64,000 nucleotides of DNA from NCBI GenBank assembly GCA_030603365.1, contig JAUVXV010000001.1, forward strand, positions 448,001 to 512,000, in the 5' to 3' direction. Position 1 is the stretch's first letter. Each line of letters starts with the position of its first letter. The notes below the pieces were generated by a model, which ran no database searches, had not been told where the DNA came from, and worked only from the letters and a program-made list of their open reading frames with translations. Of this stretch, positions 7,940 to 18,422 are shown in pieces. This DNA comes from Candidatus Heimdallarchaeota archaeon. Lineage in GTDB: Archaea > Asgardarchaeota > Heimdallarchaeia > Heimdallarchaeales > Heimdallarchaeaceae. The translations under genes and the position numbers were made by a program.

Positions 7940-8782
7940 TTAATTTTTGTTAGCTATGACAGTAATGCTTTGAATTGATTTTCCTAGGTTTAAAATATCC
8001 TCTTTGTCTTCATTGATATCTTCTATATCTATCGTGACACCATCAATAACTAACTTAACCTCTGGTTCTCCATCTTCTTTCTCTCTTTCTACTTCTTGTG
8101 TGATGTTATCGCTTTTTTGCTTGACTTGGATATCTTCAAAACCCGCATTTTCAATCATTTCTAAATATTTGTTCTTTAATTCTGCTCCTGAAACACAAGC
8201 AGCAAGAAGCTTTTTATTATTTCGAATTGCTTCAGAAAGAGGTTTAAGCAGAACAATATCAGATATTATCATTCTTCCTCCTTGTTTAAGAACGCGAAAT
8301 GCTTCATTAAAAACTCGTTGTTTCTCAGGAGAGAGATTAATAACACAATTAGAAATAATTACATCTATTGAATTATCAGCAGCAGGTAAATTTTCAATTT
8401 CTCCAAGTCTGAATTCAACATTTGTAAAGCTATTTTTTTCTGCATTGTCTCGAGCTAAATCAATCATATCTGGAGTCATATCAACTCCTATTACTTTTCC
8501 TGTATCCCCTACTTTTTGGGATGCAAGGAAGCAGTCAAGACCTCCACCAGAGCCAAGATCAAGAACAACTTCACCTTCTTTGAGTGAAGCAATAGCTGTG
8601 GGATTTCCACAACCTAACCCCATATTAGCTTCGTCTGGGATAGATGATAGTTCGTCTAGAGAATACCCTAGAGCTTTGCTAACATCTACTGATTTTGACT
8701 CTTCTCCACAACAGGAAGAGCTTCTTTTAGCTACTTTTGTATAACTGTCTCTTACACTTTTTTTTACTTCTTTTGATTCCAT
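7940..8782 (-). CDS. arsM: Arsenite methyltransferase
   Basis: SSCC, LGCGNP, LDLGSGGG, SNCVINL, ACVSGA. Confidence 0.9.
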   Translation of the reverse strand: MESKEVKKSVRDSYTKVAKRSSSCCGEESKSVDVSKALGYSLDELSSIPDEANMGLGCGNPTAIASLKEGEVVLDLGSGGGLDCFLASQKVGDTGKVIGVDMTPDMIDLARDNAEKNSFTNVEFRLGEIENLPAADNSIDVIISNCVINLSPEKQRVFNEAFRVLKQGGRMIISDIVLLKPLSEAIRNNKKLLAACVSGAELKNKYLEMIENAGFEDIQVKQKSDNITQEVEREKEDGEPEVKLVIDGVTIDIEDINEDKEDILNLGKSIQSITVIANKN

Positions 8783-9851: not shown

Positions 9852-10211
9852 TTATCCTGCAATTCTTATTGATAAAATTCCTCTTTTGTCTTTTATAACA
9901 GAGACAGCTTCGTTTGGAGCAACAATTGTAAACCCTTTAGTCTTGTTTCCTCTACCAAATATCTTTGACCACTTGAAGTCCTCTCCACCTTCAATTGAGA
10001 ACAATTTGATACCTATAAATTTAGTGTAATCAATTTTGGACATAGTTTTTTCTATCAAGTCTAATTCTTCTGTGTGTGATAGACCATCCTCAAGTACTAG
10101 TATAGTATTTCTAACTACTTTTGATAGAATATAACTTACTTTTTCTTCTGAAGAGAGATCTATTGTCTCTGAAAATGGTATAAAATCTACTCTATATTTC
10201 ATTACTTTCAC
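9852..10211 (-). CDS. DUF2073 / OapB-family protein
   Basis: EEKVSYIL, ILVLEDGL, GFTIVAP; overlaps the GTPase stop. Confidence 0.75.
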   Translation of the reverse strand: MKVMKYRVDFIPFSETIDLSSEEKVSYILSKVVRNTILVLEDGLSHTEELDLIEKTMSKIDYTKFIGIKLFSIEGGEDFKWSKIFGRGNKTKGFTIVAPNEAVSVIKDKRGILSIRIAG

Positions 10212-10822
10212 CTTACCTTCCTCGCCATATTGGCGATTGTATTGTAGAGTGTCTCTATACCATCTCCCTGTGTAGCTGATACAGGAACAACCGTATAATC
10301 CTGAAATGCATCTTTAACCATTCTTATATCTGCATCTAGTAAATCGATTTTGTTAGGTACAAGTATGAATGGTTTCTTCTGATGTTCCAAATTTCCAATA
10401 ATGGTAAAATTAACTTGATCGTAAGGAGATTTAGTTGCATCAATCACTACTAGAGCAACATCTACATTTTCTAAGAATTTAATTGCTTCCACTATTCCTC
10501 TTGTTGCTTCTTTAGCTCTTTGCATTGCCTCTCCTGCAGATAGTCCATATCTCATGAATTCCTTCGGATTAACTGAAGAAGCAATTCCTGGCATATCAAT
10601 TAGTGTAAGATCAAGTTTTGTACCATTTGAAGAAAAATTCACTTTCTCAAGCTTTTGAATTGTTCTAGTTTCATGTGGAATCTCACTTACAATTCCAACT
10701 TCTTGGTTAGCCCAATCCTTACCCATTTTGTTAGCAAGTGTTGTCTTTCCAGCGTTAACTTCACCATAAAACCCTAAATTAATTGATTTTGGCTTTGATT
10801 TTAGCCACAATCTCCATGACAT
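10208..10822 (-). CDS. Era-like GTP-binding protein (OapA family)
   Basis: GEVNAGKTT, PHETR, DMPG, EATRGI, NKID. Confidence 0.88.
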   Translation of the reverse strand: MSWRLWLKSKPKSINLGFYGEVNAGKTTLANKMGKDWANQEVGIVSEIPHETRTIQKLEKVNFSSNGTKLDLTLIDMPGIASSVNPKEFMRYGLSAGEAMQRAKEATRGIVEAIKFLENVDVALVVIDATKSPYDQVNFTIIGNLEHQKKPFILVPNKIDLLDADIRMVKDAFQDYTVVPVSATQGDGIETLYNTIANMARKVR

Positions 10823-11020: not shown

Positions 11021-12100
11021 ATGTTCATTATGGGAACAAATCTTAAATTGTGGTTGAAATTGCTCTTAAAAAACAAATTCAATGTCAGCCTACGCTATAT
11101 ACCACGGGTTTTTATCATTTCTTTAGTCGTTAGTTTTTTCACTCCTTTAGTATTATATGAACATCTTCGATTTAGAAAACAAATAAGAAAAGTTAAAATC
11201 GATAAACACCCCATTTTCATCATTGGGCATTGGAGAACAGGAACTACACATCTACAGAATTTACTTCTAAACGATGATCAGTTTGGATATCTGAATCTTA
11301 TTGAAGCAACTTTTCCGTACTTACTATTAGGGAATTATAAGCTAATTCACTTCTTGATGAAACCCCTTATCCCAAAAACTAGAGCAATGGATTCGATGGA
11401 AATGAATCCAGAAACACCTCAAGAACATGAATTTGCTCTCACTAATCTATGCTTACATTCCCCTTTAACTTCATTGTTCTTCTTGAATAAAGAGGAAGAA
11501 TATCTGAAATATGCTTTGTTTAATGAAGTATATGAGAATGAGTTCAAAGAATGGAAAAGTGCATTCAGTTATTTAATTAACAAATTGACACTCAAGGAAG
11601 AAGGAAAACAGTTATTGTTAAAAAATCCTTTAGACACATTTAGAATTAAAATCCTTCTTGAATTATATCCTAAATCTAAATTCATCCATATTTATAGAGA
11701 TCCATACAATATTTTCTACTCTATGGTGAAACTATATCAGACTAATACTAACTTATTTTGGTTACACAAACCTAATTTTAATCTTCATGATTTCATTTTC
11801 AGAATTTATTCTAGCATGAATCAGGATTTATACAAAGAAATAAAGGAAATTCCAACTGATCAGTTTATTGAAATTAGATATGAAGATTTAATTTCTAACA
11901 CCTCACAACAATTGAAACGAATTTATAACCATCTATCTTTGGGAAAATTTGAAATAATTAAGGAAAAAGTAGATATTTACATAGATTCGCTTGAAGGATA
12001 TGAAGTTGACTCCTATTCAATGTCCAAAGCTGAGAAACAACATATTTATTCTAAATGGAAAGAATCAATAGATAAATGGAATTATGAAAAACCATCATAA
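11021..12100 (+). CDS. PAPS-dependent sulfotransferase (Stf3-like)
   Basis: GHWRTGTT, PQEHE, LLKNP, IHIYRDPY, RYEDL. Confidence 0.85.
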   Translation: MFIMGTNLKLWLKLLLKNKFNVSLRYIPRVFIISLVVSFFTPLVLYEHLRFRKQIRKVKIDKHPIFIIGHWRTGTTHLQNLLLNDDQFGYLNLIEATFPYLLLGNYKLIHFLMKPLIPKTRAMDSMEMNPETPQEHEFALTNLCLHSPLTSLFFLNKEEEYLKYALFNEVYENEFKEWKSAFSYLINKLTLKEEGKQLLLKNPLDTFRIKILLELYPKSKFIHIYRDPYNIFYSMVKLYQTNTNLFWLHKPNFNLHDFIFRIYSSMNQDLYKEIKEIPTDQFIEIRYEDLISNTSQQLKRIYNHLSLGKFEIIKEKVDIYIDSLEGYEVDSYSMSKAEKQHIYSKWKESIDKWNYEKPS

Positions 12101-12722: not shown

Positions 12723-13868
12723 TTAGAGATATTTCATTTCTTTTGGAGTGTTTGAGAGCCTGATAGAACCTTCTTTTGTAACAACACAATCATCTTCAAG
12801 ACGTATACCAAATTCATCTGCAAAATAGAGGCCAGGTTCAACAGTTATAACTGAGTTTTCCAATAGGGCTTTACTTGGATTATCAGGAGTAGATTTTCGA
12901 ATACCTATTCCTATATCATGAGTTTCTATCCCAAGTGGGTGTCCTGTTGAGTGTATGTATAATTTTTCATGATCATATCCATACTCCTCAAATTTATCTC
13001 TGACAGCAATCTCTACTTCTTCACCCAGTACTCCAGCTCTAATTTTCATAAATGCAGCTTCTTTTGCTTGATCCACAGCTTCGTATGCATGTAGTACATT
13101 CTCTGGAGGATTTTTTCCAATCCAGTATGTGTGAGTGATATCTGAATTAGAACCCTCATATGCAACACCATAGTCAATTAGCAGCACTTGTTCCGCTTCA
13201 ATTTTCTTTTGTCCAGCTTTATGATGTGGTATAGCAGCATGAGATCCCGAAGCGACAATAGCTTCAAAAGCTACTCCTCCTCGTTTATTTGCCTCATATT
13301 CAATTAAGGCAGCAATCTCCTTCTCTGTAACTCTAGGTTTAATTTTAGGCTCAACAACATCTTCCATTAGCTCTTCAGCTAATTGTGCAGCAATTTTATG
13401 ATTCTCAATTTCTTTTTTGGTTTTTGTTGCTCTGATATCAAAAATAATATCCTTAGCAGAAATATAATTCAATTGAGAGTTGAAATTTGTTAAAGCTTTA
13501 AGAGTTCCACTTGTTAGAATATCAAAATTAAATTTAGAGAAAACTTGTTCTTCTTCTACAAAGTTTAATGCTATTTTTGCTTTCGGTGAAAAACTATTGA
13601 GTAAGGTTTTGATCGAATCTTTCAATTCTTCTCCTTTCTTGTACGGAACAACATCATAAATTTCATCATTAACCATCATTGCTTCCATACGTGATGTTAT
13701 AACAGTAGGTTTTCCAGATTGAGGTATAAGGGTCAATGTTGGACTAGAAAACCATTTTCCTAAAAGATATCGTTGGTGAATGTCATAAGAATGATGACAA
13801 AAAACAATCCATCCATCAGCCCCATGCATCTTAAGAACATTTTGAATTCTATTTATCTTCTCTTTCAA
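12723..13868 (-). CDS. Xaa-Pro peptidase (M24B)
   Basis: IDYG, SDITHT, HSTGH, TVEPGLY, RLEDD. Confidence 0.92.
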   Translation of the reverse strand: MKEKINRIQNVLKMHGADGWIVFCHHSYDIHQRYLLGKWFSSPTLTLIPQSGKPTVITSRMEAMMVNDEIYDVVPYKKGEELKDSIKTLLNSFSPKAKIALNFVEEEQVFSKFNFDILTSGTLKALTNFNSQLNYISAKDIIFDIRATKTKKEIENHKIAAQLAEELMEDVVEPKIKPRVTEKEIAALIEYEANKRGGVAFEAIVASGSHAAIPHHKAGQKKIEAEQVLLIDYGVAYEGSNSDITHTYWIGKNPPENVLHAYEAVDQAKEAAFMKIRAGVLGEEVEIAVRDKFEEYGYDHEKLYIHSTGHPLGIETHDIGIGIRKSTPDNPSKALLENSVITVEPGLYFADEFGIRLEDDCVVTKEGSIRLSNTPKEMKYL

Positions 13869-14490
13869 ATTCTACACATTCCTTAAATATTGAACGAAGT
13901 TCATTTGATAATAATTCATTGTCTGCTATTTCAATTAAATCTTTAAATGTGTCTATGTCTCTGTAAGCTTTGTTATACTTGTTTACTGTAATTCCAATTG
14001 AATTCCTCTCAAAAAATTCTTTGAATCTAAGAGATGAATTTCTTCCAAATACCTTTGGAAATTTTTCTTTTCTCCTAAAACAGATAATACTTGTTCCTTT
14101 ATCTGCTGTGGGTGCTAGAATAGCTTTGAGTGTCTTCTTATATTTGTTAATTATGTCTTCTATATGGTTGGCTGTGATTAAAGGTAAATCTGCCATTACA
14201 ATTACAATTGTTTCTTCCTCTATTTCCTCAAGAGCTAAAGAAATTGAATCATTTAGCTCTTTCCCTTTATCTTTCAAAATCTCAAAATTACCCTCAAACT
14301 CTAATTCAGATTTTTGTGTTAACACATAAACTTTGTCTATTCCCCTTATTTTGAGAACTTCATGTATTACATTCTGCGTTACTTCTTTTAGTAATCGCTC
14401 TAGAATAATTTCATCTAAATTGCTTCGAAGCCTGCTCTTATCCGTAACAGTGCCTCTGTAGGGAATAATTATTGCCTTACTCATTAGCAT
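13849..14490 (-). CDS. cofC: 2-phospho-L-lactate/PEP guanylyltransferase
   Basis: AIIIP, KSRL, MADLPLI, APTADKGTS, DIDT..DL. Confidence 0.8.
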   Translation of the reverse strand: MLMSKAIIIPYRGTVTDKSRLRSNLDEIILERLLKEVTQNVIHEVLKIRGIDKVYVLTQKSELEFEGNFEILKDKGKELNDSISLALEEIEEETIVIVMADLPLITANHIEDIINKYKKTLKAILAPTADKGTSIICFRRKEKFPKVFGRNSSLRFKEFFERNSIGITVNKYNKAYRDIDTFKDLIEIADNELLSNELRSIFKECVEFEREDK

Positions 14491-15274
14491 CCCTGATATA
14501 TTTTTCTATTAATTCTTTTATAAAAAGAGGATTGTCAATTAATGGTCTAGCTATTGAAACTGCTTTTGCACCTACTGATAGCATTTTTTGTACATCTTCA
14601 ATTGTTCTCACTGAATTATTCCCAATTATTGGAATATTTGTACTTTCAGCAAATTCTTGTATAATTCCAATATCTGCTCTTGTTTCATCTGGTATCATTG
14701 CATCTATGTGAATGAACTTACATTCGTATCTCTCTAATATTCTGATTAAGCTATTAGCATCTTGGATTACATGCCCTCTGATTTTTATCCCAAATGAATT
14801 ATGAGGATTAAATTGTTTGATTTCTTGTAATAGTCTTTCCAAGTTGGCTAAATTATACAATAATGCTTGCCCTCCTCCAATACTAACAATTTCCTCTTGT
14901 CTACAATGAGCATTTATCTCTAAATAATCCACATAAAGGTTAAGATGGTTCAGCCAAATTTTACTCATATAATCAATTTCTACTATTCTTACATTCGTGG
15001 AAATTATCTGATCTAATCTCTTCTTTTTTAATCGAAGGTTATCAATACACCATCTTTTTATTTCATTCTCTCTTTCGGACAACAAAAACTCCTTTCTCCC
15101 TCGATTAAGTAGTAATTGTGTTGCGTTTTTGCATTTTTTATCAATAGATAACCCCCCTAAAATTGTCATACTGACATTGAGTTCTAACATTTTTTGACAA
15201 AATTGAAAATTAGCAATTCCTGCTAAAGCCGATTGTATTATTGGAGGATGAAACATATCACTCTTCATACTCAT
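14477..15274 (-). CDS. DUS-like FMN TIM-barrel protein (MJ0144-like)
   Basis: SALAG, LEINAHCRQ, HIDAM, IIGNNSV, VSIAR. Confidence 0.8.
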   Translation of the reverse strand: MSMKSDMFHPPIIQSALAGIANFQFCQKMLELNVSMTILGGLSIDKKCKNATQLLLNRGRKEFLLSERENEIKRWCIDNLRLKKKRLDQIISTNVRIVEIDYMSKIWLNHLNLYVDYLEINAHCRQEEIVSIGGGQALLYNLANLERLLQEIKQFNPHNSFGIKIRGHVIQDANSLIRILERYECKFIHIDAMIPDETRADIGIIQEFAESTNIPIIGNNSVRTIEDVQKMLSVGAKAVSIARPLIDNPLFIKELIEKYIRDANE

Positions 15275-15279
15275 GATGT

Positions 15280-16206
15280 CTATCCTCTATTTATTATCAT
15301 TGAAGCTAGGTTTTTTGCTATGATATTATCTTTGAACAAAATGTTTTCAGATAATACTGTAAGATTTGTTTGCTTTTCTATAGGTTTTATCAGATCTTTG
15401 TCAGTACTATGTACAATAAAAACATCACACAAATCTTGATACATTTTTGCTATTTCTAATGTGGATATAGCATAACCTTCTGATTTCATCAATTTGGCAG
15501 TTGGACCACTAACAGGATTTTTGCCAATAATAGGGCTTATAGCAATGATTCTCTCTTTGTTCTTACGTAATCGTTTTTCTATTGGCATCAATTTAATGAT
15601 TGGACCTATGCTTGTTATGGGATTGCTTGGACCAATAATTATTTTATCACTTTGGTCAATACTTTTCAATGCAACTTCTGGAACCTCTGCTTCATTTAGG
15701 TTTTTGATATATATTTTATCTATCTCAACTTCTCCTTTTTGCTTTACCCAAAACTCTTGAAAGTGAATATCTTCTCCTTTATTTGTTATAATCCTAGTTT
15801 CAATATGCGTATCTGAACTTGGAAAAATTCTTGAATCTATTTGTAATTTTTTTCTTAATATATCTGTTATTTCGGATAATTTTTTCCCTTTTCTAATTTG
15901 ATCCGTTCTGAATATGTGAGTTGCTAGATCTCTATCCCCAATATTAAACCAAGTGTCATATCCAAGATTATTCAAATGCTTCAGTGTGTTAAATGTATCA
16001 TTCTTTATTCCCCAAAATCTCTCAGTGTCTAGAATATTACTCAATAAGTAGATTATTGTGTCAATGTCTGGTGATACATATAATCCATATATCCATATAT
16101 CGTCTGCTGAATTGGCTATTATGGATATTTGATTTTCATCTAGAATTTTTCTAAAACCTTGTATTAATTTTGGAGTTCCGGTTCCTCCTGAAAGAAAAGT
16201 AATCAT
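15280..16206 (-). CDS. cofD: 2-phospho-L-lactate transferase
   Basis: LSGGTGTPK, PDIDT, WFNIGDRDLATH, HFQEFWV, GPSNPITSI. Confidence 0.94.
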   Translation of the reverse strand: MITFLSGGTGTPKLIQGFRKILDENQISIIANSADDIWIYGLYVSPDIDTIIYLLSNILDTERFWGIKNDTFNTLKHLNNLGYDTWFNIGDRDLATHIFRTDQIRKGKKLSEITDILRKKLQIDSRIFPSSDTHIETRIITNKGEDIHFQEFWVKQKGEVEIDKIYIKNLNEAEVPEVALKSIDQSDKIIIGPSNPITSIGPIIKLMPIEKRLRKNKERIIAISPIIGKNPVSGPTAKLMKSEGYAISTLEIAKMYQDLCDVFIVHSTDKDLIKPIEKQTNLTVLSENILFKDNIIAKNLASMIINRG

Positions 16207-16254: not shown

Positions 16255-17127
16255 TTATTTCTTCTTAGTTTTACTTTTTTTAGTTTTTTTAGCTGCTGGT
16301 TTCTTGGCTGCTTCCTTTGGCTTAGCTGCTGGTTTCTTGGCTGCTTCCTTTGGCTTAGCTGCTGGTTTCTTGGTTGCTTCTTTTGGCTTAGCTGCTGGTT
16401 TCTTGGTTGCTTCCTTTGGCTTAGCTGCTGGTTTCTTGGTTGCTTCTTTTGGCTTAGCTGCTGGTTTCTTGGCTGTAACCCTCTTCTTTGCAATAGGTTT
16501 TACATCTGATAATCTTAATCTTGCTGAAGATTTTATAATTACTCTATAATATGCTCCATCTTCACCCATCTCAGGATTGCGAACTATTCTAATTATGTCA
16601 CCAGGTTTTGCTTGAATAGCTTTTACAGCTGGATCAGTTTCGAGAATTTTAGGGATTTGATGCTTCTCTATTTGATATCTAGTAAGAAAACTCTTGATAT
16701 CCTTAGTTTTTAGTTTAAAGTGTTGAGGAACCAATTCATGATCGAATATGTTGAAAAGAGGGTTTGTACTACTAATAATCTCAATTCCTAACTTTACTGA
16801 TTCCTTTTTAGCATAATGAGTTAATGCCGCTTCAGCAATAAGAAGTGCTTCATCCAAACTCTTTTCTTCCTGGAGTTTACCCAATGTTCTTATTGTTTTA
16901 ACACCAATTTGTGGGTTTTTAGGAAAACGAGCGATTGCTGATACTTTGTCTCCTTCTTCTTGTTTTTTTTCAGCATAAACGTCTAAAAAATCATCATCTT
17001 CGATAGTTTTTTTAATTTCGAATTCTCTGAATTCAAGAATTTCTTTGACTCCTTTTAGGATTCTCTTTTCTTTAGCTAGCTGTTCTTTAGTTGACAAGGA
17101 GGTTGCACCGCTCTCAATAACTATCAA
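16255..17127 (-). CDS. rpo5: RNA polymerase Rpo5/RPB5-like protein with N-terminal jaw domain and K/A/P-rich tail
   Basis: HELVPQH, IPKILETDP, PGDIIRIVR, YYRV; IGVKTIR jaw motif. Confidence 0.85.
   Translation of the reverse strand: MIVIESGATSLSTKEQLAKEKRILKGVKEILEFREFEIKKTIEDDDFLDVYAEKKQEEGDKVSAIARFPKNPQIGVKTIRTLGKLQEEKSLDEALLIAEAALTHYAKKESVKLGIEIISSTNPLFNIFDHELVPQHFKLKTKDIKSFLTRYQIEKHQIPKILETDPAVKAIQAKPGDIIRIVRNPEMGEDGAYYRVIIKSSARLRLSDVKPIAKKRVTAKKPAAKPKEATKKPAAKPKEATKKPAAKPKEATKKPAAKPKEAAKKPAAKPKEAAKKPAAKKTKKSKTKKK
16289..16475. repeat. 33-bp tandem repeat, about 5.6 copies (encodes KKPAAKPKEA[T/A])
   Basis: TTAGCTGCTGGTTTCTTGG(C/T)TGCTTC(C/T)TTTGGC units start at 16289, 16322, 16355, 16388, 16421 and 16454 (partial). 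Confidence 0.95.
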
Positions 17128-17165: not shown

Positions 17166-17525
17166 TTATGAACTCTTATCCTTTTCTTTTTGGAATTTAA
17201 TGAAATAAGAACCATCTTTATTTCGTCCAATTATTGGACTTTCTTCATCTGATTCAGCAAGAAGCTTATCTATATCAACTTCAAAAACACCGTTTGTTGT
17301 TAATCGTATTGCTTCAACTCCATCCTGAATTTCTGTACCTTCAATTTCATTTACAACTATTAATTCTAGTTCCTTTTCCTTTAAATCTGAATCTGCATTT
17401 TTTCTATATGTTTTGAACTTGAATGAACCACAAAATGGACATCCGTTAATAAGAATCTGAACATTTAATTCTAATTCCTTCTCACATAAACCACAAATCG
17501 TTGTTTTTTCTGATGGTTCTACCAT
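17166..17525 (-). CDS. Zn-ribbon DUF2072 / OapC-family protein
   Basis: CGLC...GCPFCGSFKF, IRLTTNGVFEVDIDKLL, DGSYFI. Confidence 0.75.
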   Translation of the reverse strand: MVEPSEKTTICGLCEKELELNVQILINGCPFCGSFKFKTYRKNADSDLKEKELELIVVNEIEGTEIQDGVEAIRLTTNGVFEVDIDKLLAESDEESPIIGRNKDGSYFIKFQKEKDKSS

Positions 17526-17567: not shown

Positions 17568-18422
17568 TTATTCCATCAGGACACTTGAACTATAAAGAAA
17601 AGGACCTTCATAATCACATCTGGAACATCCATTTTCTTCTAAATCCTCTAATGTTCCAAAATCACCATTCTCTCCAATATTATATAGAATTCCACATTTA
17701 CATTTGTATAGCTTTGGAGACATTTTGCTTTCTCTTAAATACATAGGACCATAATAGTGATTAAAAATTGTCTCTTTTGAGCTATTTTTTACTTTGAGAA
17801 TATACATGTTTGATGTATTCTTTTCAAAAGGTGTTGGATATTCGTATTTATTAAAATCTACGAGTACATTTTCAATTTCTAAATCCATCAAATTGAACAT
17901 TTCAGTAATCCATTCCTCTTTTTCTTTCTCAATATCAAAAGAGAGGAAGATTTTTGATGGGATTTCCTTTGTAGCACATTGAACAGCTCTAGATAAACCA
18001 ACTTCCAACCCTTCTTTAGTCATTGAAGGTTCTAGAAAAATGTAATCAAATTGATTTCTTAATATTGCTATCATCCTGATTCTAATATCCTGATTGATAT
18101 ATCTTATGGAACGGATTTTATAATCAAATTTCAGTTTAAATACTATTTCAGGTATTCTTTTATCTATATCTAAAACCGCTAGGTCTCTTGGTTTAGAAAT
18201 CATTCCGAGAGACAAAGAAGAAAGATCCATGTCACCTAAGAAAATTATTCGCTTTTTTTCATAATTCGCTGGGTTTTCCAATAGAATTCTTCGATAGCTT
18301 GTATCCAATGTTACATAATATTGATCAAATTCAGGATTAGGTTTTCCCCTAAGTTCTTGAATCTCGCCATATGCTGTTTTAATATTATTAAGAATATCTG
18401 AATCAAGAGATCCAACGTTCAT
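17568..18422 (-). CDS. Divergent BpsA/DUF43 aminopropyltransferase-like protein with C-terminal Zn finger
   Basis: EFDQ, FLGDMDLSSL, VLDIDKRI; CKCG...CSRC. Confidence 0.65.
   Translation of the reverse strand: MNVGSLDSDILNNIKTAYGEIQELRGKPNPEFDQYYVTLDTSYRRILLENPANYEKKRIIFLGDMDLSSLSLGMISKPRDLAVLDIDKRIPEIVFKLKFDYKIRSIRYINQDIRIRMIAILRNQFDYIFLEPSMTKEGLEVGLSRAVQCATKEIPSKIFLSFDIEKEKEEWITEMFNLMDLEIENVLVDFNKYEYPTPFEKNTSNMYILKVKNSSKETIFNHYYGPMYLRESKMSPKLYKCKCGILYNIGENGDFGTLEDLEENGCSRCDYEGPFLYSSSVLME

What the first reader, a model, noticed from the sequence alone, without database searches (positions are those of the whole stretch)
13849..16206. DUS-like flavoenzyme wedged between cofD and cofC: candidate dehydro-F420 reductase
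Seen: cofD, the DUS-like gene and cofC are tightly coupled (5-nt gap, then overlap). The middle protein keeps the DUS catalytic Cys (EINAHC) but at 265 aa seems to lack the tRNA-recognition domain. Established: PEP-based F420 synthesis yields dehydro-F420-0, which mycobacteria reduce with the FbiB nitroreductase domain, and DUS enzymes are FMN-dependent C=C reductases. Inference: this protein performs that reduction or another F420-pathway step in archaea.
Basis: partly seen in the sequence, partly recalled or inferred. Interest (0 to 1): 0.7.

Follow-up and report, generated by a model that had tools for sequence, protein, structure and literature searches.

The report
Candidate missing archaeal F420 reductase
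A small flavin-enzyme gene that databases label an archaeal tRNA-modifying enzyme sits inside the coenzyme F420 operon of this Asgard archaeon and stays beside the same F420 gene across several archaeal phyla, making it a specific, testable candidate for the long-unassigned step that makes the lactyl arm of F420.

Summary
Observation confirmed: cofD (15280-16206), a 265-aa Dus-like gene (14477-15274) and cofC (13849-14490) are coupled (5-nt gap, 14-nt overlap) in a Heimdallarchaeaceae-like genome. The protein matches the untested MJ0144/'archaeal Dus' family (TIGR00736, below cut-off). It is a bare Dus-type TIM barrel with the catalytic Cys and no tRNA-recognition domain; canonical Dus and PyrD genes lie elsewhere. 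In 111 Asgard genomes it follows cofD 30 of 30 times, is missing from all 28 cofD-negative genomes, and never co-occurs with the FbiE-like nitroreductase found beside cofD in 39 others. It also neighbours cofD in Methanobacteriales and haloarchaea-like genomes. Refinement: it pairs only with M. mazei-type CofD, a type reported to prefer the lactyl intermediate, whereas the nitroreductase pairs with one FbiA-type clade. So the exclusivity is about one event, and free PEP (giving 2-phospholactate) is at least as likely a substrate as dehydro-F420-0. Against: 30 of 91 Halobacteriota and 14 Asgard genomes have cofD with neither enzyme. Best reading: enolpyruvyl-to-lactyl reductase for F420, 0.62, untested biochemically. 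The scan proposed this before on at least eight other genomes.

The parts
15280..16206 (-). cofD, LPPG:Fo 2-phospho-L-lactate transferase, M. mazei type (GGTGTPK and GPSNP motifs)
   Evidence: TIGR01819 above cut-off; closer to 3C3D (256 bits) than to FbiA 6UVX (161 bits)
14477..15274 (-). MJ0144-family ('archaeal Dus') stand-alone FMN-type TIM barrel, 265 aa; candidate enolpyruvyl-to-lactyl reductase. Conserved C124, K164, H189, D191, N219, N220, S240, R243, and a family-specific basic set (R58, R60, R96, R125, R166)
   Evidence: TIGR00736 E 2e-50, 171.5 bits, below the 218.7 cut-off; model and fold search; conservation over 143 sequences
13849..14490 (-). cofC, 2-phospho-L-lactate guanylyltransferase. 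Gly149 sits at the site where 3-PG-using enzymes have Ser/Thr (mapped by motif spacing)
   Evidence: TIGR03552 above cut-off; 2I5E hit; alignment A3; residue list in PMC8764529
16255..17127 (-). rpoH (RNA polymerase subunit Rpo5), conserved upstream neighbour in Heimdallarchaeia; not thought to be part of the mechanism
   Evidence: PF01191, NF007129; synteny
12723..13868 (-). M24 peptidase (PepQ-like), overlapping cofC; conserved downstream neighbour in Heimdallarchaeia; no link to F420 shown
   Evidence: PF00557; synteny

Best explanation
The protein is an FMN-dependent ene-reductase that creates the saturated lactyl arm of coenzyme F420 in archaea that carry the M. mazei-type CofC/CofD pair. 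Proposed chemistry (inferred from Dus/DHODH/DPD, with MurB as precedent for reducing an enolpyruvyl ether): reduced FMN gives hydride to C3 of the enolpyruvyl group and Cys124 protonates C2. The conserved arginines would hold the phosphate and carboxylate. Substrate, unresolved: free PEP giving 2-phospho-L-lactate, replacing the never-found lactate kinase CofB (about 0.30); dehydro-F420-0 giving F420-0, the 'CofX' step (about 0.25); EPPG giving LPPG (about 0.07). In methanogens the fused or adjacent Cys-rich marker-9 domain may feed electrons (inference). Shown: fold, catalytic Cys, missing tRNA domain, gene context, distribution. Inferred: FMN binding, reaction, substrate, electron donor.
For: Asgard draw of 111 genomes: 30 carry the gene, all directly after cofD; none of 28 cofD-negative genomes has it; 39 other cofD genomes have an FbiB-C/FbiE-like nitroreductase directly before cofD; none has both. 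Gene orders: cofE-cofD-X-cofC in Jord/Freyarchaeia; cofE-cofD-gch3-X in Methanobacteriales; cofD-X in 11 of 61 Halobacteriota, 7 of them checked at 66-73% GC; cofE-cofD-X-marker9 in a further small phylum. Single copy in 51 of 51 Methanobacteriota; all 61 Halobacteriota carriers have cofD. Six of nine divergent representatives looked up lie beside cofD (one more distant hit not counted). The genome has cofE, cofG, a canonical Dus and PyrD elsewhere. The pathway gap is stated in PMC6450877 (CofX, no lactate kinase candidate) and PMC7253369 (origin of 2PL in archaea unknown). All 61 CofDs with this gene in the locus are GGTG/GPSNP type, all 30 nitroreductase-adjacent ones are FbiA-like.
Against: Not required by all cofD carriers: 30 of 91 Halobacteriota (nearest named CofDs ANME-1/Syntropharchaeia-like, some Archaeoglobi, uncultured lines) and 14 of 83 Asgard have neither enzyme. 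Close relatives of this genome have lost it while keeping cofD, cofC, cofE and cofG. The nitroreductase-linked CofDs form one clade (100/99), so the exclusivity is about one phylogenetic event (family-level Fisher p 0.04). In 50 of 61 Halobacteriota it is not next to cofD; in the loci inspected it mostly sits with marker 9, citG, DUF447 or atwA. The genome has generic nitroreductases (25-33% identity) that could do the reduction. From memory, not checked here: Graupner and White 2001 reported GTP-dependent lactate kinase activity in methanogen extracts, which would make a PEP reductase unnecessary.
Confidence: 0.62

Rival explanations
1. It acts in another C1-cofactor pathway (methanopterin/methanofuran synthesis, or with the marker-9 domain in methanogenesis), and its place beside cofD reflects an old cofactor-biosynthesis gene cluster.
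For: Fused to or beside methanogenesis marker 9 and followed by citG and DUF447 in most Halobacteriota loci inspected; beside atwA (MCR component A2) in Methanobacteriales and Methanosarcinia. An ancestral-looking cluster cofE-cofD-X-marker9-citG-DUF447 exists.
Against: In Asgard genomes the constant neighbour is cofD, with cofC next or near. This genome gave no marker-9 or DUF447 match, and citG is on another contig. The gene is kept in non-methanogens (Heimdallarchaeia, haloarchaea-like genomes). The non-overlap with the nitroreductase beside cofD is unexplained under this reading.
Confidence: 0.12
2. It is a tRNA dihydrouridine synthase, as annotated ('archaeal Dus').
For: Best structural matches are Dus enzymes (Z 23.3); the catalytic Cys and KxR motif are kept; Kasprzak 2012 (PMC3674756) places the family among Dus enzymes.
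Against: No helical recognition domain. NxGCP and HxR are replaced by NAHCR and HxD. A canonical Dus is encoded elsewhere in this genome. No tRNA-related gene context in any lineage examined. D is described as rare or absent in hyperthermophilic archaea (PMC7668247), yet the gene is in 51 of 51 Methanobacteriota. The classification in the passages read rests on sequence clustering.
Confidence: 0.1
3. It supplies L-lactate (a pyruvate/lactate or lactaldehyde redox step) for a separate lactate kinase in the classical 2-phospholactate route.
For: Same context and CofD-type evidence as the best reading; the classical route starts from lactate (PMC8498797); weak match to FMN-dependent alpha-hydroxy-acid dehydrogenases (E 0.007).
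Against: Fold neighbours and the invariant Cys are those of C=C reductases (Dus, DHODH, DPD), not carbonyl reductases. The FMN_dh match covers only the phosphate-binding end of the barrel and is below cut-off.
Confidence: 0.08
4. It acts on the Fo/deazaflavin branch or in F420 repair or turnover, not on the side chain.
For: Adjacent to GTP cyclohydrolase III in Methanobacteriales; Dus/DHODH-type barrels act on pyrimidine rings; it is dispensable in several lineages.
Against: No such gap is described in the Fo branch in the papers read. It is linked to cofD/cofC; in this genome cofG is on another contig. The non-overlap with the side-chain reductase would be unexplained.
Confidence: 0.08

Closest known systems
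MJ0144 family / 'archaeal Dus' subfamily (NCBIfam TIGR00736, hypothetical equivalog; Kasprzak 2012, PMC3674756)
   Same: Full-length best match (E 2e-50); NAHC[KR] and HxD motif variants; short stand-alone barrel; archaeal range.
   Different: Scores under the curated cut-off, as all Heimdall members searched do. No tested function was found in the literature searched. The F420 link is not in the papers found.
tRNA dihydrouridine synthases (PF01207; T. thermophilus Dus 3B0P, E. coli DusB 6EI9, TM0096 1VHN)
   Same: FMN-type TIM barrel, catalytic Cys after strand 4, KxR Lys, phosphate-binding Arg; presumably the same hydride-plus-Cys chemistry.
   Different: 12-18% identity; no recognition domain; family-specific RGRxEF segment; context is F420 genes.
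FbiB C-terminal domain / FbiE (dehydro-F420-0 reductase, nitroreductase fold; TIGR03553)
   Same: Proposed net outcome (enolpyruvyl to lactyl, FMN hydride); sits next to cofD; complementary distribution in Asgard archaea.
   Different: Unrelated fold; pairs with FbiA-type CofD whereas this gene pairs with M. mazei-type CofD; may act at a different point of the pathway.
Hypothetical CofB (lactate kinase) and CofX (archaeal dehydro-F420 reductase)
   Same: The unassigned step that yields the phospholactyl group in archaea (PMC6450877, PMC7253369, PMC8305020).
   Different: Neither has a gene. This protein is a redox barrel, not a kinase, so it would replace CofB by a reduction or be CofX.
Dihydroorotate dehydrogenase class 1 / dihydropyrimidine dehydrogenase
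   Same: Fold (Z about 21) and Cys acid-base chemistry at a C=C bond.
   Different: PF01180 below cut-off; a separate 306-aa PyrD is encoded in this genome.

Membership tests
MJ0144 / archaeal Dus (TIGR00736) | Score above curated cut-off 218.7 | tested here: not met
   171.5 bits over profile 1-226 of 231, but best family by 40 orders of magnitude; no Heimdall relative searched passes either. Filed as a divergent Asgard branch, not a cut-off member.
MJ0144 / archaeal Dus (TIGR00736) | NxHC[KR] in place of NxGCP and HxD in place of HxR (PMC3674756) | tested here: met
   N121-A-H123-C124-R125; H189-x-D191
tRNA dihydrouridine synthases | FMN-type TIM barrel with catalytic Cys and KxR lysine | tested here: met
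   Z 22-23 to Dus chains; C124, K164, R166 aligned to the genome's own Dus
tRNA dihydrouridine synthases | Canonical NxGCP and HxR motifs | tested here: not met
   NAHCR and HxD instead
tRNA dihydrouridine synthases | C-terminal helical tRNA-recognition domain | tested here: not met
   Model ends with one helix (250-264) and covers only residues ~2-247 of 306-317-aa Dus chains
tRNA dihydrouridine synthases | Forms D in tRNA | not testable with these tools
   Needs an assay
FbiB-C / FbiE dehydro-F420 reductases | Nitroreductase fold | tested here: not met
   The protein is a TIM barrel; no TIGR03553 match at E 1e-18 in the genome
FbiB-C / FbiE dehydro-F420 reductases | Encoded beside cofD/fbiA | tested here: met
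   30 of 30 Asgard cases
FbiB-C / FbiE dehydro-F420 reductases | Reduces dehydro-F420-0 with FMNH2 | not testable with these tools
   Needs an assay
Dihydroorotate dehydrogenase | PF01180 / PyrD equivalog cut-off | tested here: not met
   22.4 bits against 27, over 57 residues only; separate PyrD on contig C15
3-PG-activating CofC (3PG-F420 route, no reduction needed) | Ser/Thr at the FbiD G163 position | tested here: not met
   Gly is invariant at the matching column in 17 CofCs with and without the Dus-like gene; column assigned by motif spacing, not by direct alignment to FbiD

The most novel reading that the evidence does not exclude
The 'archaeal Dus' family is not a tRNA enzyme but a PEP reductase that makes 2-phospho-L-lactate directly. 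This would remove the need for the lactate kinase CofB, explain the micromolar 2-phospholactate of methanogens, and give archaea two alternative modules for the F420 lactyl arm: M. mazei-type CofD with this barrel (reduction before coupling) and FbiA-type CofD with a nitroreductase (reduction after coupling). It would also predict that lineages with neither enzyme, such as ANME-1-like archaea and some Heimdallarchaeia, use unreduced dehydro-F420 or a third route.
Probability: 0.3. Interest if true: 0.85.

Novelty: new variant of a known kind. Interest (0 to 1): 0.66.

Why it matters
The source of the phospholactyl arm of F420 in archaea has been open since about 2001: no lactate kinase gene was found, and the alternative reductase (CofX) has no gene either. 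F420 is central to methanogenesis and to anaerobic methane and alkane oxidation. This family gives one named, single-copy gene, present in 51 of 51 Methanobacteriota sampled, that can be tested with a simple enzyme assay or deletion. A positive result would close the pathway, correct a widespread tRNA-synthase annotation, give a role to methanogenesis marker 9, and add an enzyme for heterologous F420 production. PEP reduction would also be a new reaction for the Dus/DHODH fold.

Tried and rejected
One search was meant to sample Thermoproteota, but the record labelled Thermoproteota (L047) is an Asgard genome in this collection, so the search repeated the Asgard set; Thermoproteota, Thermococci and bacteria were not profiled. 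One search reached only a two-genome phylum. Sequence search of solved structures gave only HisF/HisA phosphate-binding-end matches, rejected as a generic barrel signal. The idea that genomes lacking the gene switched to 3-phosphoglycerate was tested on CofC and not supported. Paper searches for MJ0144, for Dus together with cofC, and for marker 9 found nothing relevant; the library lacks most subscription journals, so a published assignment is not excluded. The Atlas feature search returned only Dus-labelled archaeal clusters. Genome-level Fisher tests were set aside as overstated because kin are not independent.
Full report
Observation. The window comes from a Heimdallarchaeaceae-like Asgard genome: nearest named homologues are from Ca. 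Heimdallarchaeota at 62-64% identity. On the minus strand lie rpoH, cofD (15280-16206), a 265-aa ORF (14477-15274), cofC (13849-14490) and a PepQ-like peptidase. cofD and cofC pass their NCBIfam cut-offs. The rest of the pathway checked is present elsewhere in the genome: two cofE homologues and cofG; cofH was not searched.

What the middle protein is. Its best family is TIGR00736 (MJ0144 family; E 2e-50, 171.5 bits, under the cut-off of 218.7). Kasprzak et al. 2012 (PMC3674756) call this group 'archaeal Dus' and note the motif changes NxGCP to NxHC[KR] and HxR to HxD, both present here. The AlphaFold model (pLDDT 95) is a TIM barrel whose best matches are Dus enzymes (Z 22-23) followed closely by DHODH and DPD (Z about 21). 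It covers only the catalytic barrel of Dus, residues ~2-247 of 306-317. Across 143 sequences C124, K164, H189, D191, N219, N220, S240 and R243 are invariant, and a family-specific basic set (R58, R60, R96, R125, R166) is 90-100% conserved. FMN binding and Cys acid chemistry are inferred from the fold family. The genome has a canonical Dus (271 aa) and a PyrD (306 aa) on contig C15, so neither job is vacant.

Gene context. In an even draw of 111 Asgard genomes, 83 have cofD. The gene is found in 29, plus one cut by a contig end, and in all 30 it follows cofD directly. None of the 28 cofD-negative genomes has it. Orders seen: rpoH-cofD-X-cofC (Heimdallarchaeia), cofE-cofD-X-cofC (Jord/Freyarchaeia), cofD-X-(two genes)-cofC (Borrarchaeota). 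In Methanobacteriota it is single-copy in 51 of 51 genomes; the loci inspected read cofE-cofD-gch3-X-atwA-marker 9. In Halobacteriota 61 of 91 genomes have it and all 61 have cofD; in 11 it follows cofD directly, and seven of these checked are 66-73% GC, haloarchaea-like. In most other loci inspected it is fused to marker 9 and followed by citG and DUF447; some have dapF beside it. A cluster cofE-cofD-X-marker9-citG-DUF447 in a small phylum joins these two contexts.

Complementarity with the known reductase. This test followed a lead from earlier scan notes and was run here. An FbiB-C/FbiE-like nitroreductase (82-175 bits, under the TIGR03553 cut-off), alone or fused to CofE, lies directly before cofD in 39 Asgard cofD genomes; none of these has the Dus-like gene. 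By family: six with the barrel, six with the nitroreductase, none with both, five with neither. Nitroreductase-linked pathways in Lokiarchaeota and other archaea are already described (PMC6450877, PMC8498797).

A refinement, and a limit. The two partners go with two kinds of CofD. All 61 distinct CofDs with the Dus-like gene in the locus have GG-T-G and, where seen, GPSNP motifs like M. mazei CofD (3C3D). All 30 nitroreductase-adjacent CofDs have GG-[VI]-G-[GA]-A and [CSA]PSNP like M. smegmatis FbiA (6UVX). On a CofD tree the latter form one clade (100/99). So the exclusivity amounts to about one event and must not be counted genome by genome. It also bears on the substrate. Hasan et al. 2022 (PMC8764529) report that FbiA accepts only EPPG, that M. 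jannaschii CofD prefers LPPG with relaxed specificity, and that two cognate archaeal CofC/CofD pairs are highly specific for 2-phospholactate. Grinter et al. 2020 (PMC7253369) note micromolar 2-phospholactate in Methanobacterium thermoautotrophicum and that its origin is unknown. A reductase that travels with the LPPG-type CofD fits reduction of free PEP before coupling at least as well as reduction of dehydro-F420-0 after it. That these motifs set the specificity is not shown. In favour of dehydro-F420-0: the constant neighbour is cofD, and M. jannaschii CofC/CofD does turn over PEP as a minor substrate (Bashiri 2019, PMC6450877, proposed 'CofX' for this step).

Evidence against. The gene is dispensable in several lines. 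Thirty of 91 Halobacteriota have cofD but neither enzyme; their CofDs are nearest to ANME-1/Syntropharchaeia, some Archaeoglobi and uncultured groups. Fourteen Asgard cofD genomes have neither. In this genome's own genus, cofD abuts cofC in four genomes and one keeps only the two ends of the gene; three of these were checked and retain cofE and cofG. Their CofC does not show the 3-phosphoglycerate signature. Such genomes may live with dehydro-F420, whose deazaflavin redox properties are the same (PMC7253369), use a generic nitroreductase, or have a third route; none of this was tested. In most methanogens of Halobacteriota the closest link is to marker 9, citG and DUF447, which keeps another C1-cofactor role open. 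From memory, lactate kinase activity was reported in methanogen extracts in 2001.

Verdict. The locus is real and conserved, the protein is very unlikely to be there by chance, and the tRNA label is poorly supported. The best reading is an FMN ene-reductase for the F420 lactyl arm (0.62: PEP 0.30, dehydro-F420-0 0.25, EPPG 0.07). I found no paper making this assignment in the library searched. The scan has proposed the F420 link at least eight times on other genomes, which is not independent support.

Noticed in passing
window 16255-17127 (-): RpoH is 290 aa: an N-terminal domain with weak restriction-endonuclease-fold / Rpb5-N matches, the Rpb5 C-terminal domain, and a C-terminal tail of Lys/Ala/Pro-rich 11-residue repeats (33-nt tandem repeats near 16290-16480).
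   Followed up: no
window 17166-17525 (-) and 9852-10822 (-): An OapC-like gene (PF09845) lies about 6 kb from a small GTPase and a 119-aa ORF that look like oapA/oapB (the last two not confirmed by a family hit); the arrangement is conserved in Heimdallarchaeia loci.
   Followed up: partly
window 17568-18422 (-): Branched-chain polyamine synthase BpsA C-terminal domain protein (PF01861), conserved upstream of rpoH in relatives.
   Followed up: no
window 11021-12100 (+) and 7940-8782 (-): ORFs that look by motif like a PAPS-dependent sulfotransferase and an arsenite-methyltransferase-like SAM enzyme; not searched.
   Followed up: no
L174:5346-5530 (G012) and L171:726-741 (G130): G012 keeps only the first ~38 and last ~21 codons of the Dus-like gene between cofD and cofC; G130 lacks it cleanly, start codon to start codon, although its CofD is nearly identical to that of a genome that has it. 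Recent loss or assembly artefact.
   Followed up: partly
L115:540-1463, L116, L121, L130, L122, L169, L170: In the two neighbouring Heimdallarchaeia families that lack both reductases, a ~305-aa protein (metallo-beta-lactamase match in one member only) is conserved directly upstream of cofD; role unknown.
   Followed up: partly
L164, L165 (G057, G067, single-contig genomes): FbiA-type CofD followed by cofC with no nitroreductase match and no Dus-like gene: candidates for dehydro-F420 users.
   Followed up: no
G054, G064; G264, G291, G336, G351: Extra divergent cofD paralogues: three or four per genome in one Asgard family, and near-tandem second copies in some Halobacteriota.
   Followed up: no
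G000:C7:19589-20266 and C1:526781-527461: Two cofE homologues above cut-off in this genome; relatives also have two.
   Followed up: no
L047: A record titled 'Thermoproteota archaeon S9B3_HD70' falls in the Asgard phylum of this genome collection (same genome as G095).
   Followed up: yes
L052, L061, L077 and similar (Methanoperedens): The Dus-like/marker-9 fusion is transcribed divergently from a complex-I-like operon (NuoA/NuoB homologues, probably the F420H2 dehydrogenase fpo).
   Followed up: partly
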